Positions 4,934 to 16,400 are shown, counted from the stretch's first letter. The stretch: DNA of 45,655 nucleotides from an uncultured Bacilli bacterium (GCA_944363535.1 CALVUG010000004.1:1-45655), one strand, 5' to 3'. Program-made: numbers and translations. The notes: generated by a model from the letters alone, not told the origin.

Positions 4934-5912
4934 AAATGTAAGAATAATCGTATCTTCTGTTATCAGTCTAGTCGTCTTTGCTGTCGTCTTTGCTATCATA
5001 TTTTCTGTGTTTAATTCAAATGATTCACCTAAACCTCCCATCAATACACAATTGGGTGTAGTGGATAATATTGAATATGATAAAGATACGAACATCTTAT
5101 CGTGGGAAGAAATTGATTTTGCTGATTCATACAATGTAAGCATTAATGATAAAGTTGAAAGCGTAAATGAAACTTACTACACTGTTGATGTCGATCCAAG
5201 CATCACTTATTACATCGTAAAAATTCAAGCTTGTGATTCAACTGGAACATACTTATCATCTGAATGGTCAAAACCCTTTGAAATAACATTGACAAAGCAA
5301 GAAAGTCTTGTAAGTGCTGTTAATGAGTTTGCTGAAAGTATCCCTAGTGATGCCTATACAATGCATAATGTAGTAAGCATACACGCGGATGGAAGTCATC
5401 TATTTACTACTGCCGTCTATGAGAGAATGGGAAAAGACTATATTTTGACATATGATACAGACTGTGGAGAAACCATCACAAGTCTAGAAGAAGCACTTAA
5501 AACTCAGAACGTAAATGAAAAAACATACACAGATTCAAAAAATCTTGCAAAACACTATGACACTGCATCATCATTCTTGGCAAGAAGTGAATATAGCGAG
5601 CAAATTCAAGCGTTGGCAGATCAACAATATGATTTAAGTTTTGTAACAAGTCAGGCATATGAAATTACAAGTAATACAATAGGCTTAAAAGGAATATTAA
5701 AGGCTACAAAAGGAAATGAAAGCGATTATTATTCAATTGATTTAGAAATAGGCGTCGGAGATTTTACTAATGAAACTTATAAGTACACGAATGCCGTAGA
5801 GGATGTAATACAAAAAGGTATTATGGAGCACACTTTCGTTGAACTTACTGGGGATTTTAAAGAATATGCCCAACAAGTTGAGGAGATGCAAGCATCACAA
5901 AATAGCAATTAA
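4926..5912 (+). CDS. Membrane-anchored extracellular protein with fibronectin type III-like domain
   Basis: N-terminal TM/signal anchor; VDNIEYD..NILSWEEIDFADSYNVSIN...YYIVKIQACD...SSEWS is an FN3-like pattern; acidic composition. Confidence 0.6.
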   Translation: MNKNVRIIVSSVISLVVFAVVFAIIFSVFNSNDSPKPPINTQLGVVDNIEYDKDTNILSWEEIDFADSYNVSINDKVESVNETYYTVDVDPSITYYIVKIQACDSTGTYLSSEWSKPFEITLTKQESLVSAVNEFAESIPSDAYTMHNVVSIHADGSHLFTTAVYERMGKDYILTYDTDCGETITSLEEALKTQNVNEKTYTDSKNLAKHYDTASSFLARSEYSEQIQALADQQYDLSFVTSQAYEITSNTIGLKGILKATKGNESDYYSIDLEIGVGDFTNETYKYTNAVEDVIQKGIMEHTFVELTGDFKEYAQQVEEMQASQNSN

Positions 5913-6101
5913 TGCAACATTAAGTGCTTAGATTGCTTCAAAGAGATGAAAGAAAGTAGCAGTGTTTATACACCTTATTTTATGTTCATTTTCACAAATT
6001 GATATTTGATTTTAATTGGACTAACTCATAATCCTTATAATTTTTAATTAATTAAATAAAACGTTTATGTCATAATAATTATTACAAGGAGAACTATCCC
6101 C

Positions 6102-7331
6102 ATGAAAGATTATTTGAAAGAAGCGGAAGAGGCTTACACTCCTCTTTTAGCTATCGAAGAAGCAAGTAGGTGCTTGCTATGTTTAGACGCCCCATGCTCT
6201 AAGAATTGTCCCGCTGGAACAGACCCCGCTAGATTTATTCGTGCCTTACGTTTTTTAAATGAAAAAGGTGCAGCGGAAGTTATTCGTGAAAATAACGCTT
6301 TAGGGGCCATATGTGCAAGAGTGTGTCCACAAGAAAAATATTGTAAATTAGGTTGTTCAAGAAGTGGTATTGATAAACCAATTGAAATTGGCAAGATTCA
6401 ACGTTACATCACTGATTTTGAAGCTAATTTAAAGATGGAAATTTTAAGGAAGCCAGAAGTAGAATTAAAACAAAAGGTTGCCATCATTGGTTCTGGTCCT
6501 GGTGGTTTAGAACTTGCGGCTTTATTGCGTATGAAAGGTTATCAAGTGACAATCTTTGAAAAAGATGAAAAACTTGGTGGTTATCTAAGATATGGCATTC
6601 CTTCATATCGTTTACCAAATGATGTCTTAGATTTAGAAATTAAGCGTATCTTAGATTTAGGTGTTAAAAATTTAGTGAATCATCCAGTGGACGATGATGA
6701 ATTTAAGAAATTAAAAGAAGAATATGACGCGGTCGTCGTTGGAACTGGTTACGAATTAGCGAAAACATTGCCAATGTTTGAAGATGACCCACATGTCGAA
6801 CTTGCGACTCAATTTTTAAAAAGAGCGAAAAATGAAGGTGGCGATATCGATGTCTATAGCGATACATTAGTCATTGGCGGTGGGGACGTGGCCATGGATG
6901 TCGTTACAACTTTAAAGCGCATTGGAACACCGCGTGTCATCGATGTCGTCTATGAAGAATTTAATGAATTTAGAGCCAGTCAAAAAGAATTGAATGAAGC
7001 TAGAGCATTAAACGTATCCATCATTGATGGTTATGTTCCAATGAGTTACGATGGCAAAGTAGTAACATTTAAACATCGTCATTTACCAAGCGTTATATCG
7101 ATTGAACCTAAACATATCATCTTAGCGGTAGGACAAGTCGTTAGACCACAATTTGATTTAGATTACAATCTAGGTGAAGTAGTGACCAATAATTACCGCG
7201 TCGGTGACTCTAATGTGTTTGTCGTCGGTGATATCGCTAAAGGCGATAAAACAGTCGTTGGGGCAGTTAAAACTGCAAAAGAGGCGGCTTACTTTATCGA
7301 TTCATATTTAACGAAAGCGAGGGAAAAATAA
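6102..7331 (+). CDS. preT: Dihydropyrimidine dehydrogenase subunit A (FAD, 2x[4Fe-4S])
   Basis: [15 protein letters not shown]...[11 protein letters not shown] Fe-S domain; GSGPGG; GGGDVAMDV; overlaps the preA start codon. Confidence 0.88.
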
Positions 7332-8578
7332 TGATTAAGAAAGATTTAAGTATCGAATTCCTCGGTGTGAAATTTAAAAACCCTTTCATGCTTTCTTCTT
7401 CACCAGTCGGCAATTGTTACGATATGTGTGCGAAAGCTTTTAGATCTGGTTGGGGTGGAATTGTTTATAAAACCTTAATTAAAGATCCATGCGATGAATG
7501 TTCGCCACGTTACGATATGTTGACCAAGGAAGCTACTCCTTTCGTTGGTTTTAAGAACATGGAACAACTTACTGAACATCCTTTAGAAGATGATTTAAGA
7601 GATATTACACGCCTTAAAAAAGAATTCCCTGATTGCGTTTTAGTGGCTTCGATTATGGCGGGAAGCGATGAAGATTGGAAAATTTTAGCTAAACAAGTCG
7701 AAGATGCTGGAGCGGATATGATTGAACTTAATTTCTCTTGTCCTCAAATGACCGATACACATCTTGGTTCGGCAATTGGACAAAATCCTGATTTATGTCG
7801 TCAATACTGCAAAGCAGTAAAAAGCGCAACCAAACTTCCTGTTATCGCTAAGATGACACCAAATATTACCGATATGTGCGAAGTAGCACTAGCTAGCATG
7901 GAAGGTGGAGCGGATGCCATCTCTGCTATCAACACGATCAAATCTATTTTAAACGTCGACTTAGATAAAGAAGTAGGCTTACCTATCGTCAATGGCAAAT
8001 CCTCTATTTCCGGTTATTCAGGTAAAGCAGTTAAACCAGTTGCTCTAAGATTTATTCAGCAATTGAGAGATAATCCTAAAACAAGAAATATTCCTATCTC
8101 CGGTATCGGTGGGATTGAGACGTGGCGTGATGCAGCGGAATTTATTTTACTAGGTGCTTCTACTTTACAAGTGACGACCGCTATCATGCAATATGGTTAT
8201 CGTATCATCGATGATTTATGTAATGGTCTCATGCATTATATGGAAGAAAAAGGTGTCGATCATCTTTCTGACTTAGTAGGAAGAGCTAATAAGAATGTTA
8301 TTCCTGCGGAAGAACTTGATCGAGACTTCAAAATTTATCCAAAAATAGATGATGATAAATGTGTTGGTTGTGGAAGATGTTACATCTCTTGTTACGATGG
8401 TTCTCACCAAGCTATGGAATGGGATAAGAAGACGAGAAGACCAACTTGTAACACTGATAAGTGTGTCGGCTGTTTACTTTGTTCCCTAGTCTGTCCTGTT
8501 GGGGCAATATCTAAAGGCGAAGTTGTCTTCAAGCCAGGTCGTGGCAAAGGAAGAAAAACAAAAGACGTTATCATCTAA
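7331..8578 (+). CDS. preA: NAD-dependent dihydropyrimidine dehydrogenase subunit B
   Basis: [26 protein letters not shown]-terminal [11 protein letters not shown] and [12 protein letters not shown] ferredoxin motifs. Confidence 0.93.
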
Positions 8579-8604
8579 TATTTATCAATTATTAACTTTG
8601 AATT

Positions 8605-8629
8605 AAAAGCACCTTTATGGTGCTTTTTT
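8605..8629 (+). terminator. Intrinsic terminator after preA
   Basis: AAAAGCACC-TTTAT-GGTGCTTTT followed by TT. Confidence 0.8.
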
Positions 8630-8842
8630 GGTATGAACATTAATATTATTACCTATTATATTTATCTTCTTACCAGCATTTTATTCTTATACTTAAAGAA
8701 GAATTTTATATTATCAAGCAATAATCTTTATTTCATACATATCTTTAATCGTGTCAAGATTAAAACTGGTAGCTTACTTCTACAATTTTCTATGATAAAT
8801 AAAATTAGTGTCTTTTATTCTAATCTATTGCATAATTAAGTC

Positions 8843-10066
8843 ATGGCTAAGAAAAATAATCCTTTGATCGAAGATAATTATCAAGAAGAATTATTGGATT
8901 TAACTCAAATTCAAGCGGAGGCAAAAAGATGTCTCAATTGTAAAGCTCCGCGTTGTTCTTTGATGTGTCCAATGCAATGTGAACCACATCGTTTCATTGC
9001 TCTACTTAATAGTGGAAATATTGAAGAAGCAGCAAAATTTGTCTACGAGAAAAATCTTTTAAGTTATATATGCGGCCACATATGTCCAAGTGAAAAATAT
9101 TGTGAGAAAAATTGTTTAAGAGGTAGGATTGATCGCGTTATTAAAGTAAGAGAAATTCATCGATATCTTGCTTCATTAAATAGAAGAGACGAAGAAGAAT
9201 TTCAACCATTAAATAATAAACATGCTTTGATTATCGGCGGTGGGCCAGTGGGCTTAGTGATGGCTCATAAACTTGCAAAACGCGGGTTAAAATCCACTAT
9301 TTTAGAGAAAAGCTCATATTTAGGAGGAGCTTTAAGACAGCAAATTCCTGCTTTTAGATTACCTTCTAGCGTCATCGATCATGATTTAAATCCTTTGTTA
9401 AACGAACGCATCGAAATTAAATTGAAGATGACTTTTGGAAAAGATGTCACTTGCGATGATGTCAAGGACAAATACGATGCAATTATCTTTACGACTGGTT
9501 TAGATAAACCTAGAACTTACGATTTTATGTTGGATCATCCAAAAGTTATTTTGGCGCAGGATTTTTTAAAGATGTGCCGTCACGAAAGAGAAATTACCAC
9601 TTACGATAAAATAGTTGTCATCGGTGGGAGTGATACAGCGATGGATTGTCTCACTAGTGCGAAAAAAATCGCTAGAGAAGTCATCGGGGTGTATCGAAGA
9701 GAAAAAGAAAGATTAAGAGCCAATAAAGAATCTTTGGAGATGGGATTTAAGGCTGCGGATGATTTTATCTTTAATCGTACGCCTATTAGATTTGATGAAG
9801 CAGGGAATATGGTCTTTAAAAATTATTATGGTGAAGAGGAGGAAACTATTCCTGCAAGTTTATACGTTTTAGCTATTGGTGTTCTTATCGATGATAGTTA
9901 TTTAAAAGATTTCTTTGAAATTGAAGATGGTGTCATTAAAAATAAGAAAATATCTAACGTTTTTTACGCTGGCGATATGTCATCTAGTGATAAAACATTA
10001 GTAAGCGCACTTTCTACAGTGGAAGATGTCGTTGATAAAGTTTTGAATTATTTAAATTTAGATTAA
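8843..10066 (+). CDS. PreT/GltD-family FAD and Fe-S oxidoreductase (second paralog)
   Basis: RCLNCKAPRCSLMCP...CGHICPSEKYC; GGGPVG; GGSDTAMDC; VYRRE; same size and architecture as PreT. Confidence 0.85.
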   Translation: MAKKNNPLIEDNYQEELLDLTQIQAEAKRCLNCKAPRCSLMCPMQCEPHRFIALLNSGNIEEAAKFVYEKNLLSYICGHICPSEKYCEKNCLRGRIDRVIKVREIHRYLASLNRRDEEEFQPLNNKHALIIGGGPVGLVMAHKLAKRGLKSTILEKSSYLGGALRQQIPAFRLPSSVIDHDLNPLLNERIEIKLKMTFGKDVTCDDVKDKYDAIIFTTGLDKPRTYDFMLDHPKVILAQDFLKMCRHEREITTYDKIVVIGGSDTAMDCLTSAKKIAREVIGVYRREKERLRANKESLEMGFKAADDFIFNRTPIRFDEAGNMVFKNYYGEEEETIPASLYVLAIGVLIDDSYLKDFFEIEDGVIKNKKISNVFYAGDMSSSDKTLVSALSTVEDVVDKVLNYLNLD

Positions 10067-10090
10067 ATTATTAAACATTTTTTCTATTAG

Positions 10091-10120
10091 TAAAATACTT
10101 ATAAATACTTTATAATACTT
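10091..10120 (+). repeat. Three tandem 10-bp repeats (xxxAATACTT) containing a TATAAT box upstream of hydC
   Basis: TAAAATACTT ATAAATACTT TATAATACTT at 10091-10120. Confidence 0.7.
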
Positions 10121-10161
10121 TTTGTTTAAGAACTAATTTGTTTCTAGGAGGAAATAAGTAC

Positions 10162-10653
10162 ATGGCTTCTTTATCAGCCGGGGCGAAAAAACGCATTTTA
10201 GAAATATGTGCGGAATACAAAGATGAACCGACCCCATTAATTATGATTTTAAGTGAAGTACAAAATGAATTTGGCTACGTTCCACTTGAAGTGCAAGAAA
10301 TTATCGCTAACGAATTAGATATCCCAGTTTCGGATGTTTATGGTGTAGTAACTTTCTATGCTTTCTTCTCTTTAAAACCGAAAGGAAAATATGTCATTGG
10401 TGTCTGTCTAGGTACGGCCTGTTACGTCAAAGGTTCGCAACAAGTGATCGATAAGTTCGCTGAACTTTTAAATACGAAGCCAGGTGGAACTTCCGATGAT
10501 GGTTTATTTTCCCTTGATGCTCTGCGTTGCATTGGCGCGTGCGGTATTGCACCAGCGGTTAACGTAAACGGTAAGGTTTATCCAAAGGTAACTGTGGACC
10601 AAGTTCCCCACATCATCGAGGAATATCGTAAATTAGAAGGAGAAAATTTATGA
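10162..10653 (+). CDS. hydC: [FeFe]-hydrogenase gamma subunit (NuoE-like, [2Fe-2S])
   Basis: VCLGTAC...CIGACGIAP; AGGAGG RBS before the ATG at 10162 (the ORF track start at 10138 is probably too early). Confidence 0.9.
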   Translation: MASLSAGAKKRILEICAEYKDEPTPLIMILSEVQNEFGYVPLEVQEIIANELDIPVSDVYGVVTFYAFFSLKPKGKYVIGVCLGTACYVKGSQQVIDKFAELLNTKPGGTSDDGLFSLDALRCIGACGIAPAVNVNGKVYPKVTVDQVPHIIEEYRKLEGENL

Positions 10654-12515
10654 TCGATTCAACGAAATCATTAAATGAGAAAATCACTCATTGTTCGCAA
10701 TGTTTAAAAAATAAAGTCGAAGGCTTAGATGGAAAACGTGCCGTCGTCGTCTGCGGCGGGACGGGTTGTATGGCATCTCATTCCGAAGAAATTTTGGAAG
10801 AATTTAAAAAGCTCATCGAAGAATATGATTTGCAAGATAAAGTAACAGTGAATCACGTTGGTTGTTTCGGCTTTTGTTCGCAAGGTCCATTCGTCAAAAT
10901 TTTTCCTGAAGATACTTTATACCATGCCGTCAAAGTCGAAGACGTTAGAAAGATTGTCGAAGAGGATTTATTGAATAATCATGTCGTTTCTGAACTATTC
11001 TATGAAGATCCAGCAACGCATCAAAAAGTGCAAAGACAAGATGATATTAATTTCTACAAGAAACAAGTACGTCTAGCGTTACATGGCTGCGGCCATATCA
11101 ATCCTGAAAACATCGATGAGGCTTTAGGTTATGGTGCTTTCCAAGGTTTGGAAAAAGCTTTGAGTATGAAACCACAGGAAGTCATCGACTTAATCTTAAA
11201 GAGCGGTTTAAGAGGTCGTGGTGGAGCAGGCTTCCCTACCGGCCGCAAATGGCAATTTGCTTACGATCAAAAAAATGATACAAAATATGTCGTCTGTAAC
11301 GGCGATGAAGGTGATCCAGGTGCGTTCATGGATCGTTCCATCTTAGAAGGAAATCCCCTTAACGTCATCGAAGGGATGATGATTGCAGGCTACGCGATTG
11401 GAGCGAAGAATGGTTACTTCTACGTCCGTGCGGAATATCCTATCGCTGTGAAGCGCTTAAGAATCGCTATTAAAGAAGCGGAAGAATTAGGTCTAATTGG
11501 TGATCATATCTTAGGTACAGATTTCTCTTTCCACGTCCACATTAGATTAGGGGCTGGGGCTTTCGTCTGCGGTGAAGAAACCGCCTTACTTAATTCAATT
11601 GAAGGTAAAAGAGGTATGCCTCGTCCGCGTCCTCCCTTTCCCGCGATTAGTGGTCTATGGGGTAAACCGACGATCATCAATAACGTCGAAACTTTAGCTT
11701 GTGTTCCTTACATTTTAAGAGAAGGTTTAGAAAACTTTACGAAATATGGAACAGAGAAATCTAAAGGAACGAAAGTGTTTGCTTTAGGTGGAAAAATTAA
11801 TAACGTCGGCTTAGTGGAAGTTCCAATGGGCACGACTTTAAGAGAATTAATTTACGATATCGGTGGCGGTATCCCGAATGGGAAGAAATTTAAAGCTATC
11901 CAAACAGGTGGTCCATCTGGTGGTTGTTTAACTGAAAAAGATTTAGATACCCCAATCGATTTCGATAACCTAGTGGCCAAGGGCTCGATGATGGGCTCGG
12001 GTGGGGCTATCGTCATGGATGAAGATAACTGTATGGTCGACGTCGCTAAATTCTATATGGAATTTATTTGCGATGAATCGTGCGGAAAATGTTCACCTTG
12101 TCGTATCGGTACGAAACGTATCTTAGAAATTTTAAATAAGATTGTAAGAGGTAATGGTACGAGACAAGACCTAGATGATTTATTACATCTTTCTAAGACG
12201 ATCAAAGCTGGTTCGTTATGTGGCTTAGGTCAAACGGCCGCGAATCCAATACTATCGACGACAGCGAACTTCATGGACGAATATTTAGAACATATCGATG
12301 AGAAGAAATGTCGTGCGCACGTTTGTAAACATCTCATGCGTTACGTCATCGATGCGGAAAAATGTAAGAAGTGTTCTTTATGTGCAAGGAATTGTCCTGT
12401 TAACGCTATTAGCGGTGTGGTCGGTAAAGAACCATTCGTCATCGATCAAAATAAGTGTATCAAGTGTGGTATGTGCTTCAGCGCTTGTCGCTTCAAAGCC
12501 ATCAACAAGGAATAA
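10650..12515 (+). CDS. hydB: [FeFe]-hydrogenase beta subunit (NuoF-like, FMN/NADH)
   Basis: GLRGRGGAGFPTG, NGDEGDPGAFMDR, GAFVCGEETAL, GGPSG, CGKCSPCRIG, C-terminal 2x[4Fe-4S]. Confidence 0.92.
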   Translation: MIDSTKSLNEKITHCSQCLKNKVEGLDGKRAVVVCGGTGCMASHSEEILEEFKKLIEEYDLQDKVTVNHVGCFGFCSQGPFVKIFPEDTLYHAVKVEDVRKIVEEDLLNNHVVSELFYEDPATHQKVQRQDDINFYKKQVRLALHGCGHINPENIDEALGYGAFQGLEKALSMKPQEVIDLILKSGLRGRGGAGFPTGRKWQFAYDQKNDTKYVVCNGDEGDPGAFMDRSILEGNPLNVIEGMMIAGYAIGAKNGYFYVRAEYPIAVKRLRIAIKEAEELGLIGDHILGTDFSFHVHIRLGAGAFVCGEETALLNSIEGKRGMPRPRPPFPAISGLWGKPTIINNVETLACVPYILREGLENFTKYGTEKSKGTKVFALGGKINNVGLVEVPMGTTLRELIYDIGGGIPNGKKFKAIQTGGPSGGCLTEKDLDTPIDFDNLVAKGSMMGSGGAIVMDEDNCMVDVAKFYMEFICDESCGKCSPCRIGTKRILEILNKIVRGNGTRQDLDDLLHLSKTIKAGSLCGLGQTAANPILSTTANFMDEYLEHIDEKKCRAHVCKHLMRYVIDAEKCKKCSLCARNCPVNAISGVVGKEPFVIDQNKCIKCGMCFSACRFKAINKE

Positions 12516-12535
12516 GGTAGGAGGAAATAGTCTTT

Positions 12536-14317
12536 ATGGCGTTAGTGAATATTAAAATTGAAGGTCGTCCTTATCAAGTAGAAGAAGGGATGACTATCTT
12601 AGAAGCTTGCCGTTCGGTCGGCTATCGTATTCCTTCCTTATGTACGTTTAATAAAGGGCAATGTTCTAAAGCTTCTTGTAGAGTGTGTCTCGTCGCCGTG
12701 AAGGGGGCAAGAGGGCTCGTCGCATCTTGCGTCTATCCAGTTAACGAAGGCATGGAAATTTCTATTTCTAATATCGATGCCATCGAAGCAAGAAGAGCAA
12801 ACGTGGAATTACTTTTATCTAATCACAACATGAACTGCCAACAATGTGATAAAAATGGTCACTGTGAACTTTTAGAAGTGGCTAAAATTGTCGGGGCAAG
12901 AGAAGGAATGTATCAAGGTGAAAAGACACCGACGACGTTCGATAACCTTTCACCTTCACTAGTGAGAGATACATCTAAATGTATCTTATGTGGAAGATGT
13001 ATCGAAAGATGTAAAGACGCTCAAGGTATTGGTATCTTAGGTTTTGAAAATCGTGGTTTCAATACGATCGTCGCTCCGAGCGGTAATAGAAGTTTTGCGA
13101 CTTCACCTTGCATCCAATGCGGTCAATGCGTGAACGTCTGCCCAACTGGGGCCTTGATGGAACATAGTGAAATTGCCTTAGTGGATAAGGCTTTAAAAGA
13201 AGGTAAGAAAGTCATCGTTCAAACTGCCCCAGCGGTAAGAGCCGCTATCGCAGAAGAATTTGGCGCTAAGATAGGTACCGTCGGAACTGGTAAGATGGTC
13301 GCTGCCCTACATCGTCTTGGTTTCTACCGCGTCTTCGATACGAACTTCGCAGCGGATTTAACGATCATGGAAGAAGCTTACGAATTGTTAGGTAGAATAA
13401 AAAATGGTGGTGTTTTACCACAAATTACTTCTTGTTCGCCTGGTTGGATTAACTACTTAGAATATTATTATCCTGAAGTTATTCCGCACGTTTCATCTTG
13501 TAAATCTCCTCATGAAATGTTAGGGGCCATCATCAAATCTTATTATGCAAAAAATCATGATATCGATCCAAAAGATATCTTCGTCGTAAGCGTCATGCCT
13601 TGCGTCGCTAAAAAATATGAAAAAGATCGTCCCGCGAATCGAGCGGTCGATGGTTTAAAAGATGTAGACGCCGTCATCACGACAAGAGAACTTGCGAAGA
13701 TGATTAAACGTGCTGGTATCGATTGGTCTTATCTTCCTGAAGAAGAATTTGATGATGATTTACTTGGTGAATATACTGGCGCAGGCGTCATCTTTGGTGT
13801 CACTGGTGGCGTCATGGAAGCCGCACTTAGAACCGCTTACTTTGCTTTGACTGGAAAAGAATATCCTCTCATCGAATTTAAGGAAGTAAGAAACGTTTCT
13901 TTATTTAAAGAAGCGAGCATTGAAATCGATGGTAAAGTGATTAAGATTGCTGCTGTTTCAGGTATGAAAAACGCTAAACCATTATTAGAAGATGTCAAAA
14001 ACGGTAAGTCACCATATCACTTCATCGAAATTATGGGTTGTCCTGGTGGCTGCATCAATGGTGGTGGTCAACCTTACGTCCATCCGAATCTTCTTCCTAA
14101 CGAAGAGGCAAATATTTTAGATACTTACATCCAAAAACGCGCAAGAGTCCTCTATAGCGAAGATGAACGTTTAGTCGTAAGACAATCGCACAATAACCCA
14201 GATATCAAACGTCTTTATAAAGACTATCTTGGTGAACCATGTTCCCATTTAGCGCACGAATTATTACATACGCATTACGATGCGCATCGTGAGAAATATC
14301 CGCAGGTGAAAAAATAG
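12536..14317 (+). CDS. hydA: [FeFe]-hydrogenase catalytic subunit (group A, trimeric type)
   Basis: H-cluster motifs TSCSPGW, MPCVAKKYE, EIMGCPGGCINGGGQP; N-terminal [2Fe-2S], His-ligated [4Fe-4S] and 2x[4Fe-4S] motifs. Confidence 0.95.
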   Translation: MALVNIKIEGRPYQVEEGMTILEACRSVGYRIPSLCTFNKGQCSKASCRVCLVAVKGARGLVASCVYPVNEGMEISISNIDAIEARRANVELLLSNHNMNCQQCDKNGHCELLEVAKIVGAREGMYQGEKTPTTFDNLSPSLVRDTSKCILCGRCIERCKDAQGIGILGFENRGFNTIVAPSGNRSFATSPCIQCGQCVNVCPTGALMEHSEIALVDKALKEGKKVIVQTAPAVRAAIAEEFGAKIGTVGTGKMVAALHRLGFYRVFDTNFAADLTIMEEAYELLGRIKNGGVLPQITSCSPGWINYLEYYYPEVIPHVSSCKSPHEMLGAIIKSYYAKNHDIDPKDIFVVSVMPCVAKKYEKDRPANRAVDGLKDVDAVITTRELAKMIKRAGIDWSYLPEEEFDDDLLGEYTGAGVIFGVTGGVMEAALRTAYFALTGKEYPLIEFKEVRNVSLFKEASIEIDGKVIKIAAVSGMKNAKPLLEDVKNGKSPYHFIEIMGCPGGCINGGGQPYVHPNLLPNEEANILDTYIQKRARVLYSEDERLVVRQSHNNPDIKRLYKDYLGEPCSHLAHELLHTHYDAHREKYPQVKK

Positions 14318-14319
14318 TC

Positions 14320-15012
14320 ATGATTAAACACGTTATCTTCGATTTAGATGGCACGCTTCTTGATACGATGAGCGATATGCTTCTTGCGCTTAATTTGACT
14401 GCAAAGAGAGTGTTAAAGAAAAGAAGGGTGCACCGATTTAAAAAGTCCGATGGCGTGTTTTTATACGGTAATGGGCAAAATGTTTTAGTAAGTAGGGCAT
14501 TAGATGAACTTGGTGTGAAAGATTCTTCTATTAAAGAAGAATTTAGAAAAACTTTCTATCAAATTTATGAAGAAAAATCTAACACTTTAACTAAGCCTTA
14601 TCCTTACGTCATCGATACTTTACTAGAACTTAAAAGAAGGGGAATAAATTGTTTTATCCTCTCTAATAAACCCATCAAAATTTTATCAAGAGCGGTCAAT
14701 AAATATTTTAGTGATTCGCTCATCCTTGATTTTGTTGGTTACACCGGTGAAGAACATAAAAAGCCTGATCCACTTTGTTTCTTACCATTAAAAGAAAAAT
14801 ATTCTTTAAAAGAAGAAGAATGTCTTTACGTCGGTGATTCGCTCGTAGATTATATATTCGCTAATAACACGAATATGCACTTGTGCATGGTGATGTATGG
14901 TTACGAAAGTAAACAAAATTTAGATGCCTTAGATAATACTTTTTTCATCCATAGGATGAACGCTCTTACCAAGGTGATCGATTACATCGATTCTTTCGTG
15001 CGAGCAAAATAG
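14320..15012 (+). CDS. HAD-superfamily hydrolase (phosphoglycolate phosphatase-like)
   Basis: FDLDGTLLDT, LSNK, KKPDP, YVGDSLVD motifs. Confidence 0.85.
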   Translation: MIKHVIFDLDGTLLDTMSDMLLALNLTAKRVLKKRRVHRFKKSDGVFLYGNGQNVLVSRALDELGVKDSSIKEEFRKTFYQIYEEKSNTLTKPYPYVIDTLLELKRRGINCFILSNKPIKILSRAVNKYFSDSLILDFVGYTGEEHKKPDPLCFLPLKEKYSLKEEECLYVGDSLVDYIFANNTNMHLCMVMYGYESKQNLDALDNTFFIHRMNALTKVIDYIDSFVRAK

Positions 15013-15050
15013 ATTACATCGACGAATAATTTCGCTAAAATATAGGTGCT

Positions 15051-16400
15051 ATGAAAGATATTTATTTATACAATTCCATCTCTAACAATTTAGAAAAATT
15101 CGTTCCCTTAAAGGAAGGAAAAGTTTCTCTTTACGTCTGTGGCCCGACGGTCTATAACGAACCACACATCGGTAATTTAAGACCGCCTATCGTCTTCGAC
15201 GTCCTTTTTCGTTTCTTAACTTATCTTGGTAACGATGTCACTTACGTTTCTAATTATACGGACGTGGACGATAAAATCATTAACCGGGCGAAAGAATTAA
15301 ATGTCGAACCTTTAAAACTTTCTTCTTTTTACATCGAAGAATTTAAAAAGATGCGTGAGAAGATGAACATCTTACCTCCAACTTATACACCCAAGGTGAG
15401 CGAACATATTCCTGACATCATCGCTTACATCGAAAAATTGATTGAATTAGGTTATGCTTACGTTAACGACGGTGACGTCTATTTTTCCGTCGATAAAATT
15501 AAAGATTATCTTTTGCTTTCTAAGATGAGAAAAGAAGATTTAATCGCTGGGGCAAGAATCGAAGTGAACGAAAAGAAAAGATCACCTCTAGATTTTGCCT
15601 TATGGAAGAAGACGGATGAAAATTTTAATTGGGCTTCACCTTGGTCGAAGGGTAGACCTGGTTGGCACACGGAATGCGTCGTCTTCATCGATGAAATTTT
15701 TAAAGCCCAAGATGGTCTCATCGATATTCATGGTGGGGGCTTTGACTTAAAGTTTCCGCATCACGATAATGAGATGGCGCAAGCTCTAGCGATGCATGCG
15801 CATCATTTAGCGCATTATTGGATGCATAATGGTTTCATCACCTTTGGTAACGATGAAAAGATGTCTAAATCTTTAGGTAACGTCATCACTATTTCCGATG
15901 CATTAAAATTCTACGAGCCTAACGTATTAAGAACTTTTATCCTCTCTAGTTCATATCGTGCACCTATTAGTTACAATGAAATTAACTTGATTAATGCGAA
16001 GAACAATTTTGAAAAAATTGATCATACTTATCATGCTTTATCTTTAAGATTATTATTCTTAGATGATGATTTAAACTATGAAAAAAGTGACGCTATCGAA
16101 GATTTTATCGATGCTTTAAAAGATGATTTAAATACTCCGAATGCTTATAAAGCTATCTTCGATTTAACGAAAGAAATTAATACTTATCTTCATCGTGGTT
16201 TAGATGACGTTAATACTTTAAAAAATTACTACGCTAGGCTAAAGACGATGCTAGATATTTTAGGCTACGCCATGCATACACCGAATGTTTCAAATGAAGA
16301 TAAGTTATTATATAATAGTTATATAACGGCAAAAAAGAACAAAGATTTTGCTAGAAGCGATGCTTTAAGGAACGAACTTTTAAAGAAAGGTCTTTACTGA
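15051..16400 (+). CDS. cysS: Cysteine-tRNA ligase
   Basis: CGPTVY, HIGN, GRPGWHTEC, DIHGGGFDLKFPHH, KMSKS. Confidence 0.97.
   Translation: MKDIYLYNSISNNLEKFVPLKEGKVSLYVCGPTVYNEPHIGNLRPPIVFDVLFRFLTYLGNDVTYVSNYTDVDDKIINRAKELNVEPLKLSSFYIEEFKKMREKMNILPPTYTPKVSEHIPDIIAYIEKLIELGYAYVNDGDVYFSVDKIKDYLLLSKMRKEDLIAGARIEVNEKKRSPLDFALWKKTDENFNWASPWSKGRPGWHTECVVFIDEIFKAQDGLIDIHGGGFDLKFPHHDNEMAQALAMHAHHLAHYWMHNGFITFGNDEKMSKSLGNVITISDALKFYEPNVLRTFILSSSYRAPISYNEINLINAKNNFEKIDHTYHALSLRLLFLDDDLNYEKSDAIEDFIDALKDDLNTPNAYKAIFDLTKEINTYLHRGLDDVNTLKNYYARLKTMLDILGYAMHTPNVSNEDKLLYNSYITAKKNKDFARSDALRNELLKKGLY

What the first reader, a model, noticed from the sequence alone, without database searches (positions are those of the whole stretch)
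8843..10066. Orphan second PreT/GltD paralog with switched cofactor signature between preTA and hydCBA
Seen: it has the same length and Fe-S motif (CPxEKYC) as PreT. After the second Rossmann strand PreT reads VYEEFNEF (acidic, 6948-6959) while this copy reads VYRREKER (basic, 9689-9703); its Gly motif is GGSDTAMD. No NfnA or GltB partner is adjacent. Established: Arg-Arg at this position favours NADPH in GltD/NfnB, and E. coli PreT is acidic here and NADH-linked. Inference: an exchangeable NADPH subunit for PreA, or an extra diaphorase linking NADPH to the hydrogenase, giving a possible H2/NADH/NADPH/pyrimidine redox module.
Basis: partly seen in the sequence, partly recalled or inferred. Interest (0 to 1): 0.6.

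Follow-up and report, generated by a model that had tools for sequence, protein, structure and literature searches.

The report
Orphan NADPH-type PreT-like iron-sulfur flavoprotein
A wall-less chicken-gut bacterium carries a second, fast-evolving copy-like relative of the pyrimidine-reductase subunit PreT that keeps the family's usual NADPH-binding signature and has its own promoter, so it most likely works alone as a ferredoxin-to-NADP(H) electron shuttle rather than as a built-in part of the neighbouring hydrogenase; it is a modest, genus-restricted curiosity.

Summary
ORF 8843-10066 encodes a 407-aa GltD/PreT-like protein (X) with all eight cluster cysteines, an FAD loop, GGSDTAMD and VYRREKER; the resident PreT reads GGGDVAMD and VYEEFNEF. 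However, YRR is the superfamily norm, so PreT is the switched copy, not X. X orthologs occur only in this genus, and the next database hit has 33% identity. The genome has no NfnA or GltB. X most likely branches with PreT-type proteins, but its placement is unstable. Every sampled PreT-type relative is followed by preA; X is not. It lies after a terminator-like hairpin and has a conserved leaderless-type promoter box. It evolves 3-10 times faster than PreT, PreA and HydABC (dN/dS 0.15-0.28). None of 40 hydCBA loci in related genomes has a GltD-like neighbour, and the preA-hydC gap holds unrelated genes in sister genera. My best reading (0.4) is a stand-alone ferredoxin:NADP(H) oxidoreductase that works like the Cac_0764-type Fnor. 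An alternative PreA partner (0.25) and a hydrogenase add-on (0.1) remain open. One caveat: I found no NAD kinase in any of the four genomes of the genus. An earlier first-reader note recorded the same arrangement on another genome.

The parts
6102..7331 (+). preT, the NADH-type small subunit of dihydropyrimidine dehydrogenase (409 aa; [17 protein letters not shown], Gln at the non-Cys cluster-ligand position)
   Evidence: Pfam Fer4_20 plus Pyr_redox_2. It overlaps preA by one base.
7331..8578 (+). preA, the FMN and 2x[4Fe-4S] subunit of dihydropyrimidine dehydrogenase; the only preA seen in the stretches examined
   Evidence: NCBIfam NF006183 PreA, 628 bits against a cut-off of 335.
8605..8627 (+). 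Terminator-like hairpin 27 nt after the preA stop: a 9-bp stem, a 5-nt loop and a U-run
   Evidence: MFE -12.2 kcal/mol, z = -3.56 against shuffles. A similar hairpin follows preA in congener L024.
8831..8836 (+). CATAAT, a -10-like box ending exactly 6 nt before the ATG of X, with no Shine-Dalgarno sequence: a leaderless-type promoter (inferred)
   Evidence: The box and its spacing are conserved in all five orthologous loci, including the 54%-identical one.
8843..10066 (+). Gene X: a 407-aa GltD/PreT-like Fe-S flavoprotein, the subject of the finding
   Evidence: AF2 model pLDDT 91.5. Best structural match is NfnI-L 5jca_L, TM 0.89.
8930..8968 (+). First cluster motif, C30-x2-C33-x4-C38-x3-C42-P
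   Evidence: Conserved in all orthologs.
9071..9115 (+). Second cluster motif, C77-x3-C81-P-SEKY-C87-x3-C91
   Evidence: Conserved in all orthologs.
9158..9160 (+). His106 at the position of the non-Cys [4Fe-4S] ligand (Glu126 in P. furiosus NfnI-L; Gln in PreT, as in DPD according to the review read)
   Evidence: The alignment to 5jca_L and the column table show His in all four X representatives.
9236..9253 (+). FAD-binding GGGPVG loop (G132-G137)
   Evidence: invariant G132, G134, P135.
9623..9646 (+). NAD(P)H-domain loop GGSDTAMD, with Ser where nearly all relatives have the second Gly of GxGxxA
9689..9724 (+). VYRREKERLRAN: the Arg-Arg NADPH-type signature (R285/R286 = Pf R324/R325), with Asn294 at the position of the NfnB-specific Arg333
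   Evidence: The stretch GVYRREKERLRAN is fully identical between the 54%-identical orthologs.
10067..10161 (+). X-hydC spacer: no terminator-like structure, a conserved TATAAT at 10111-10116 and AGGAGG at 10146-10151
   Evidence: Fold MFE -6.1 kcal/mol, weaker than shuffles. Conservation is shown.
10162..10653 (+). hydC (NuoE-like 2Fe-2S subunit). The likely start is ATG 10162, not the TTG at 10138
   Evidence: Pfam PF01257.
10650..12515 (+). hydB (NuoF-like FMN/NADH subunit)
12536..14317 (+). hydA, the [FeFe] hydrogenase catalytic subunit with an H-cluster domain
   Evidence: NCBIfam NF040763 (group A6), 821 bits against a cut-off of 765. PF02906, 323 bits.

Best explanation
X is a functional, genus-restricted member of the GltD-like Fe-S flavoprotein superfamily. 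It probably split from the PreT/DPD-type branch and no longer has a preA of its own. It is probably made from its own leaderless transcript. It probably works alone: electrons pass between ferredoxin (reduced by the genome's PFOR) and its two [4Fe-4S] clusters, on to FAD, and from FAD as a hydride to or from NADP(H) bound at the conserved Arg-Arg site. In other words it would be a non-bifurcating ferredoxin:NADP(H) oxidoreductase that works like the Cac_0764-type Fnor without belonging to that clade. Shown here: the fold, the cofactor motifs, purifying selection, orphan status, absence of NfnA and GltB, and the gene layout. Inferred: the promoter, ferredoxin as partner, the nucleotide specificity and the direction of the reaction.
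For: X has Fer4_20 plus Pyr_redox_2, all eight Cys, the FAD loop and YRR, all conserved across orthologs. The confident model matches NfnI-L with TM 0.89. X R172, R285 and R286 align with Pf R201, R324 and R325. The NfnB-specific Arg333 is Asn in X, as in non-bifurcating Fnors. No nfnA or gltB was found in the genome. Stand-alone NfnB-like proteins are proven NADP-specific Fnors and are expressed from single-gene transcripts (PMC9365771; PMC12221290). X has its own conserved -10 box 6 nt before the ATG and lies after a terminator-like hairpin. In congeners, unrelated genes separate it from preA. dN/dS is 0.15-0.28, so the gene is under purifying selection, but 3-10 times looser than PreT, PreA and HydABC; this fits a soluble enzyme better than an obligate subunit. 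The NAD(P)H domain is its best-conserved part, at 66% against 54% overall. PFOR is present. Distant stand-alone relatives at 32% identity sit in unrelated contexts.
Against: No NAD kinase was detected in any of the four genomes of the genus, although a family profile scores E 1e-101 to 1e-109 in sister genera. The thioredoxin-reductase-like gene lacks the HRR NADPH motif. It is therefore unclear whether NADP(H) is made at all. X does not group with the stand-alone 413-417-aa proteins in any tree. Its N-terminus (first Cys at 30) is longer than theirs (12-22). Its nearest kin by tree and ligand type are PreA partners. The Ser in the GxGxxA loop is unusual and its effect is unknown. There are no expression or biochemical data.
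Confidence: 0.4

Rival explanations
1. X is an alternative, NADP(H)-type electron-input subunit that pairs with the single resident PreA. The cell could then run uracil/thymine reduction, or its reverse, with either nicotinamide pool.
For: A careful 35-row tree joins X to the PreT clade with support 95/96. With wider sampling, the constrained X+PreT-type tree has the higher likelihood. X has PreT's length and aligns with PreT to its C-terminus, whereas matches to NfnB stop near residue 320. X shares EKYC and RA[SN] with PreT. Other PreT-like proteins with His or Gln ligand plus YRR (P0035, P0126, P0114) all sit directly upstream of a preA-like gene. X lies 265 nt downstream of the only preA found.
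Against: Every true preT seen here abuts or overlaps its preA. X follows preA, behind a terminator-like hairpin, with its own promoter box. In two congeneric lineages, 1.3-2.3 kb of unrelated genes lie between preA and X. X is 54% identical between species whose PreA is 93% and PreT 88% identical. X keeps only 6-7 of 35 PreT-specific invariant positions, no more than some unrelated proteins do (that test was not discriminating).
Confidence: 0.25
2. X is a fourth, peripheral subunit or dedicated redox partner of the HydABC [FeFe] hydrogenase and couples NADP(H) to H2. This would be analogous to group A2 HydA-GltD pairs or to the fused GltD-like domain of Stn/NfnABC.
For: X stays directly upstream of hydC on the same strand in all four species of the genus, even where other genes were inserted upstream of it. 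The 95-nt spacer has no terminator-like structure, so read-through is possible. GltD-like modules are wired to HydA-like Fe-S domains in known enzymes (PMC5037454; PMC12018979; PDB 8oh5, 9n5u).
Against: None of 40 hydCBA loci across the class has a GltD-like neighbour. The preA-hydC gap is a variable slot holding unrelated genes in sister genera. hydC has its own conserved TATAAT and a strong Shine-Dalgarno sequence. HydC, HydB and HydA in this genus are 64-76% identical to their sister-genus orthologs and of near-equal length, and they evolve 5-15 times more slowly than X. All four species belong to one genus, so the adjacency counts as one evolutionary event.
Confidence: 0.1
3. X is a relaxed leftover of a duplicated or imported preT-type gene. 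Its present role is either minor or uses a different acceptor or donor at the former nucleotide site; it is neither NADP(H)-linked nor ferredoxin-linked.
For: X has the highest dN/dS in the region and a long stem branch of about 1.5 substitutions per site. The nucleotide loop carries a Gly-to-Ser change. No NAD kinase was found in the genus. There is no Shine-Dalgarno sequence.
Against: The frame is intact in all orthologs although dS exceeds 1.3, and dN/dS is well below 1. All cofactor ligands and the Arg-Arg segment are strictly conserved, and the nucleotide domain is the best-conserved part. The promoter box is conserved. In a 0.9-Mb genome, useless genes are usually lost quickly.
Confidence: 0.15

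Closest known systems
PreT, small subunit of bacterial NAD-dependent dihydropyrimidine dehydrogenase (E. coli PreTA), and the N-terminal GltD-like half of mammalian DPD
   Same: Same length and domain order; aligns end to end at 34% identity. Shares the EKYC and RA[SN] motifs. It is X's most likely sister group in trees.
   Different: No preA follows X. X has Arg-Arg instead of Glu-Glu after strand beta-2, His instead of Gln at the non-Cys cluster ligand, and Ser in the glycine loop. It has its own promoter and evolves much faster.
Cac_0764-type ferredoxin:NADP+ oxidoreductase (stand-alone NfnB-like Fnor; PMC9365771, PMC12221290)
   Same: One polypeptide with FAD and two [4Fe-4S] clusters. NADP(H)-contacting arginines are kept, the NfnB-specific Arg333 is lost, there is no nfnA, and the gene stands on its own transcript.
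   Different: X does not cluster with stand-alone relatives in trees. Its N-terminus is longer than theirs. It has His rather than Glu as cluster ligand. Activity is untested.
NfnB / NfnI-L, large subunit of the bifurcating NADH-dependent ferredoxin:NADP+ oxidoreductase (PDB 5jca, 4ylf)
   Same: Best structural match (TM 0.89); same cofactor set and the same YRR site.
   Different: No NfnA in the genome, Asn at Arg333, His at Glu126, an N-terminus 12 residues shorter, and a shorter C-terminal part.
GltD-like modules attached to hydrogenase-type subunits: HydDB [FeFe] group A2 (hydA followed by a GltD-like gene) and Stn/NfnABC (GltD-like domain fused to a HydA-like subunit; PDB 8oh5, 9n5u, 9bov)
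   Same: A GltD-like NADP(H) module encoded next to HydA/B/C-type genes; sequence matches of E 1e-35 to 1e-45.
   Different: X is a separate gene upstream of hydC in a complete NuoF-containing hydCBA operon with a true H-cluster domain. It is neither downstream of hydA nor fused.

Membership tests
GltD-like Fe-S flavoprotein superfamily | N-terminal Fer4_20 domain with two [4Fe-4S] motifs, followed by an FAD/NAD(P)H Pyr_redox_2 domain | tested here: met
   PF14691 at 7.9e-26 and PF07992 at 6.4e-20. Eight Cys conserved. The fold matches NfnI-L, DPD and GltD.
PreT (DPD small subunit) | The gene immediately precedes or overlaps a preA gene (DHO_dh plus a 2x[4Fe-4S] tail) | tested here: not met
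   X is followed by hydC. The only preA lies upstream, behind a hairpin, and in congeners behind 1.3-2.3 kb of other genes. All 13 PreT loci and P0035, P0114 and P0126 do have a preA directly downstream.
PreT (DPD small subunit) | Placement inside the PreT/DPD-type clade | tested here: inconclusive
   X is sister to the PreT clade at 95/96 in a careful 35-row tree. It falls outside a 99* PreT-type clade in a quick 42-row tree, yet the constrained tree has lnL 2.74 higher, p-AU 0.58. Nesting inside the family's own PreTs has p-AU 0.063.
PreT (DPD small subunit) | Gln as the non-Cys ligand of the second N-terminal cluster (as in DPD) | tested here: not met
   X has His106 in all representatives; all 8 PreTs have Gln. 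His variants that do pair with preA exist (P0035, P0126).
NfnB (bifurcating Nfn large subunit) | An nfnA gene directly upstream | tested here: not met
   No PF10418 match anywhere in the genome. Relatives' nfnB genes do have a 264-285-aa nfnA beside them.
NfnB (bifurcating Nfn large subunit) | Conserved Arg333 near the bifurcating FAD, and an extended N-terminus (first Cys near 40-45) | tested here: not met
   X has Asn294 at that position and its first Cys is at residue 30. The criteria come from PMC12221290.
Cac_0764-type Fnor | Stand-alone gene with Fer4_20 plus Pyr_redox_2, no nfnA nearby, Arg333 not conserved, NADP(H)-contacting Arg kept | tested here: met
Cac_0764-type Fnor | N-terminus 25-31 residues shorter than NfnB, and membership of the stand-alone phylogenetic cluster | tested here: not met
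   X is only about 12 residues shorter (first Cys 30, against 12-22 in stand-alone relatives). It never groups with the 413-417-aa stand-alone proteins. The reference Cac_0764 sequence itself was not available to include.
Cac_0764-type Fnor | Strictly NADP(H)-dependent ferredoxin oxidoreductase activity without NAD+ reduction | not testable with these tools
   Needs the purified protein.
[FeFe] hydrogenase group A2 (glutamate-synthase-linked) | A GltD-like gene immediately downstream of hydA and no NuoF-type gene there (HydDB rule, PMC5037454) | tested here: not met
   X is upstream of hydC. hydB is NuoF-type. A HAD hydrolase follows hydA.
Stn / NfnABC (Bfu-type transhydrogenase) | GltD-like domain fused to a HydA-like subunit that lacks the H-cluster | tested here: not met
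   X is a separate 407-aa protein. HydA carries Fe_hyd_lg_C at 323 bits.

The most novel reading that the evidence does not exclude
X is a newly recruited fourth component of a bifurcating-type HydABC [FeFe] hydrogenase. It docks its two [4Fe-4S] clusters onto the complex so that NADP(H), as well as NADH and ferredoxin, is coupled to H2. This would be a split, H-cluster-retaining counterpart of the Stn/NfnABC architecture that arose within a single genus.
Probability: 0.1. Interest if true: 0.7.

Novelty: new variant of a known kind. Interest (0 to 1): 0.33.

Why it matters
If X is a stand-alone ferredoxin:NADP(H) oxidoreductase that arose from the PreT/DPD branch, the recently recognised Fe-S/FAD Fnor function has evolved more than once from different GltD-like lineages. 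Orphan 'glutamate synthase small subunit' annotations in gut genomes would then deserve re-reading. If it pairs with PreA instead, gut bacteria could tune which nicotinamide pool drives pyrimidine (and fluoropyrimidine drug) reduction. The apparent lack of NAD kinase in the same genus makes the protein a useful probe of how a minimal, wall-less gut bacterium handles NADP(H). None of this is a major surprise for specialists.

Tried and rejected
Complex prediction of X with HydA, using my own alignments A3 and A2, gave 'no answer' with score 0.00. I count it neither for nor against binding.

I counted how many of 35 positions that are invariant in PreT and rare elsewhere X retains. X keeps 6-7, known PreA-partnered distant relatives keep 8-11, and unrelated proteins keep 0-7. 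The test does not discriminate.

Net charge and pI of the Fe-S domain gave no clear separation between partnered and stand-alone proteins.

An Rfam scan of 8400-10300 found nothing near any gathering score.

The generic promoter/terminator scanner missed the preA hairpin, and its promoter hits were no more than chance. I found the hairpin and the boxes by reading and by comparing orthologs.

Recent duplication of the resident preT could not be settled. The careful tree places X outside the E. coli plus family PreT clade, yet the constrained alternative is only marginally disfavoured (p-AU 0.063).

I considered group A2 and Stn/NfnABC membership and rejected both on architecture.

Full report
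**What is there**

The window is contig C4 of a 906-kb, 96.6%-complete genome. The organism is a wall-less bacterium: no MurB was found, and earlier notes on this genome describe a Mollicute-type division cluster and a chicken-gut origin.

On the + strand lie, in order:
- preT (6102-7331).
- preA (7331-8578; NF006183, 628 bits).
- A 264-nt gap.
- The ORF in question, X (8843-10066, 407 aa).
- A 95-nt spacer.
- hydC, whose likely start is ATG 10162.
- hydB.
- hydA (NF040763, 821 bits).
- A HAD hydrolase.
- cysS.

**Check of the observation**

- X carries Fer4_20 plus Pyr_redox_2 and is 34% identical to PreT over residues 26-405.
- X has both four-Cys motifs, including CPSEKYC, and the FAD loop GGGPVG.
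- X reads GGSDTAMD and VYRREKER from nt 9689. PreT reads GGGDVAMD and VYEEFNEF from nt 6948.
- These motifs are invariant in all seven database orthologs.
- The assembly has no NfnA-type protein (PF10418) and no GltB (PF01645). X and PreT are its only GltD-like genes.

One correction matters. A motif table of about 80 relatives shows that YRR after strand beta-2 is the near-universal state of the superfamily. The acidic motif of PreT, including E. coli PreT (VAREELDEF), is the derived one. X did not switch; PreT did.

**Is it a working gene?**

An AlphaFold2 model is confident (pLDDT 91.5). Its best structural match is the NfnI large subunit (5jca_L, TM 0.89), followed by Xfn, NfnABC, DPD and GltD.

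Mapping onto P. furiosus NfnI-L gives these equivalences:
- X R172 = R201, the Arg near FAD.
- X R285/R286 = R324/R325; R325 contacts NADP(H) according to PMC12221290.
- X N294 = R333, the Arg proposed to be specific to bifurcating NfnB.
- X H106 = E126, the non-Cys ligand of one [4Fe-4S] cluster.

That ligand position is Glu in NfnB, GltD and stand-alone relatives. It is Gln in all eight PreTs, as in DPD (review PMC8097209). It is His in all X orthologs.

Between species of the genus, X has dN/dS of 0.15-0.28. The values for PreT, PreA, HydC, HydB and HydA are 0.013-0.08. X is 54% identical between two species whose PreA and HydABC are 93-94% identical. So X is under purifying selection, but much looser than its putative partners. 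Its NAD(P)H domain is the best-conserved part (66%), and GVYRREKERLRAN is fully identical between those two orthologs.

**Distribution and ancestry**

Orthologs at 54% identity or more occur only in the four genomes of this genus among 41 relatives. A word-indexed search of 5.8 billion proteins found seven clusters of them, then dropped to 32% identity. An exhaustive HMMER scan of 1.84 billion representatives found one X cluster and then a 33%-identical hit (187 against 880 bits).

The trees give an unstable answer:
- A quick 70-row tree and a careful 35-row tree place the X clade, on a stem of about 1.5 substitutions per site, as sister to a PreT clade that includes E. coli PreT. Support is SH-aLRT 87 in the quick tree and 95/96 (bootstrap/SH-aLRT) in the careful tree.
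- Nesting X inside the family's own PreTs is only marginally disfavoured (p-AU 0.063).
- With more PreT-like diversity, a quick tree put X outside a 99-supported PreT-type clade. However, the tree that forces X together with that clade has the higher likelihood (p-AU 0.58).

I therefore call X a probable, long-branch offshoot of the PreT/DPD-type branch, not a proven one. Shared EKYC and RA[SN] motifs, and the shared length, fit that reading.

All other members of that branch whose context I read are followed directly by a preA-like gene. This holds for 13 PreTs, for the His+YRR proteins P0035 and P0126, and for the Gln+YRR protein P0114. X is the exception.

**Context**

In sister genera the order preTA ... 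hydCBA-cysS recurs, but the gap between preA and hydC varies:
- One genus has a flavin-reductase-like protein, a polysaccharide deacetylase and an unknown ORF there.
- Another has a nucleotidyltransferase.
- A third has about 8 kb of other genes.

So the proximity of preTA to hydCBA is inherited synteny with a variable slot, and X occupies that slot in one genus only.

Within the genus, extra unknown genes (436 aa, or 564 plus 198 aa) were inserted between preA and X, while X stays next to hydC. This comes from only two insertions within one genus, so it is weak evidence.

Across the class, none of 40 hydCBA loci examined with 7-kb flanks has a GltD-like gene beside hydC. One has nfnAB 4 kb away on the other strand. 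HydC, HydB and HydA of this genus have the same lengths as their sister-genus orthologs.

**Transcription signals (read from sequence, hence inference)**

- A 9-bp hairpin with a U-run lies 27 nt after preA (-12.2 kcal/mol, z = -3.6).
- X has no Shine-Dalgarno sequence. A CATAAT box ends exactly 6 nt before its ATG in all five orthologous loci, including the most divergent one. That is the geometry of a leaderless mRNA.
- The X-hydC spacer has no terminator-like fold. It does have a conserved TATAAT and a strong AGGAGG for hydC.

X therefore looks like its own transcription unit, with possible read-through into hydCBA.

**Comparison with known systems**

GltD-like modules pass NAD(P)H electrons through FAD and two low-potential clusters to a partner (PMC8097209).

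Stand-alone NfnB-like proteins were shown to be strictly NADP(H)-dependent, non-bifurcating ferredoxin:NADP+ oxidoreductases. The first was C. acetobutylicum CA_C0764, expressed from a single-gene transcript (PMC9365771). They were then defined as a family by three traits: a short N-terminus, loss of Arg333 and absence of nfnA (PMC12221290).

X meets the last two criteria and keeps the NADP(H) arginines. However, its N-terminus is intermediate in length and it does not cluster with stand-alone relatives. So it would work like this family without being a member.

HydDB group A2 is defined by a GltD-like gene downstream of hydA without NuoF. Stn/NfnABC have the module fused to an H-cluster-less HydA-like subunit. 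X fits neither.

**Weighing the explanations**

- Stand-alone ferredoxin:NADP(H) oxidoreductase: 0.4.
- Alternative NADP(H)-type partner of the resident PreA: 0.25. Ancestry favours this; gene layout and evolutionary rate argue against it.
- Add-on to HydABC: 0.1.
- Relaxed relic, or a protein with some other substrate: 0.15.

**A caveat that cuts across all NADPH readings**

NAD kinase was not found in this genome by any of four methods:
- Pfam PF01513.
- Pfam PF20143.
- tblastn with 11 sister-genus NadK proteins.
- A profile built from those 11 proteins, which gave a best E of 0.31.

The same profile finds nothing in the three congeners either, yet it scores E 1e-101 and 1e-109 in two family genomes that were not used to build it. 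Four other genera of the family also show only DAGK-like weak hits.

Other observations point the same way. No G6PD or malic enzyme was found. The thioredoxin-reductase-like gene lacks the HRR NADPH motif.

Either an unrecognised kinase makes NADP, or X's strictly conserved Arg-Arg site serves something else. I could not resolve this.

**What did not work**

The one complex prediction (X with HydA) returned no verdict. Two sequence-based attempts to detect a retained PreA interface were uninformative.

An earlier first-reader note of this scan described the same arrangement in another genome. It is the same idea rather than independent evidence.

Noticed in passing
whole genome G000 (not in the window); congeners G001-G003: No NAD kinase is detectable in any of the four genomes of the genus (97-99% complete). 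Pfam N- and C-domain models, tblastn and a family profile all fail, yet the profile scores E 1e-101 to 1e-109 in sister genera. G010, G012, G019 and G024 also show only DAGK-like weak hits, although G019 encodes nfnAB.
   Followed up: partly
G000:C7:3010-3930 (minus strand; partly in L067:711-1101): A 307-aa thioredoxin-reductase-like protein has the CATC redox motif but a degenerate glycine loop and no HRR NADPH motif. From memory, this pattern resembles ferredoxin/flavodoxin-dependent flavin thioredoxin reductases.
   Followed up: no
L066:320-1213 (G000:C13): A 297-aa DAGK_cat protein (PF00781, 2.9e-20) is the only NAD-kinase-fold relative found in the genome. It is a candidate to test for non-orthologous NAD kinase activity.
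   Followed up: partly
window 5912-16400; L043, L050, L051: The order preTA ... hydCBA-(HAD)-cysS is conserved in several genera of the family. The slot between preA and hydC is variable and holds unrelated genes in each genus.
   Followed up: yes
window 10138-10164: The mechanical ORF for hydC starts at TTG 10138. The AGGAGG at 10146-10151 and the ortholog lengths (162-164 aa) indicate ATG 10162 as the real start.
   Followed up: yes
L037:3187-7195 (also L038, L039, L040, L041): Relatives encode 946-983-aa proteins (a shorter one in L041) with ferredoxin-like clusters plus a GltD-like module, flanked by HypB/CobW-like and HypA genes. Their GltD-like part has an acidic 'LE[DET]' motif instead of YRR. 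I found no name for this unit.
   Followed up: no
L105 (G031:C50:1-13516), L052: In one genome of the same order, hydCBA-cysS lies within about 4 kb of a NAD kinase gene and an nfnAB pair. Hydrogenase and NADP-related redox genes can therefore cluster in this group.
   Followed up: no
L004:5658-7938 and L003:6628-7938: The genes inserted between preA and X in congeners (564 + 198 aa, and 436 aa) have no Pfam match.
   Followed up: partly
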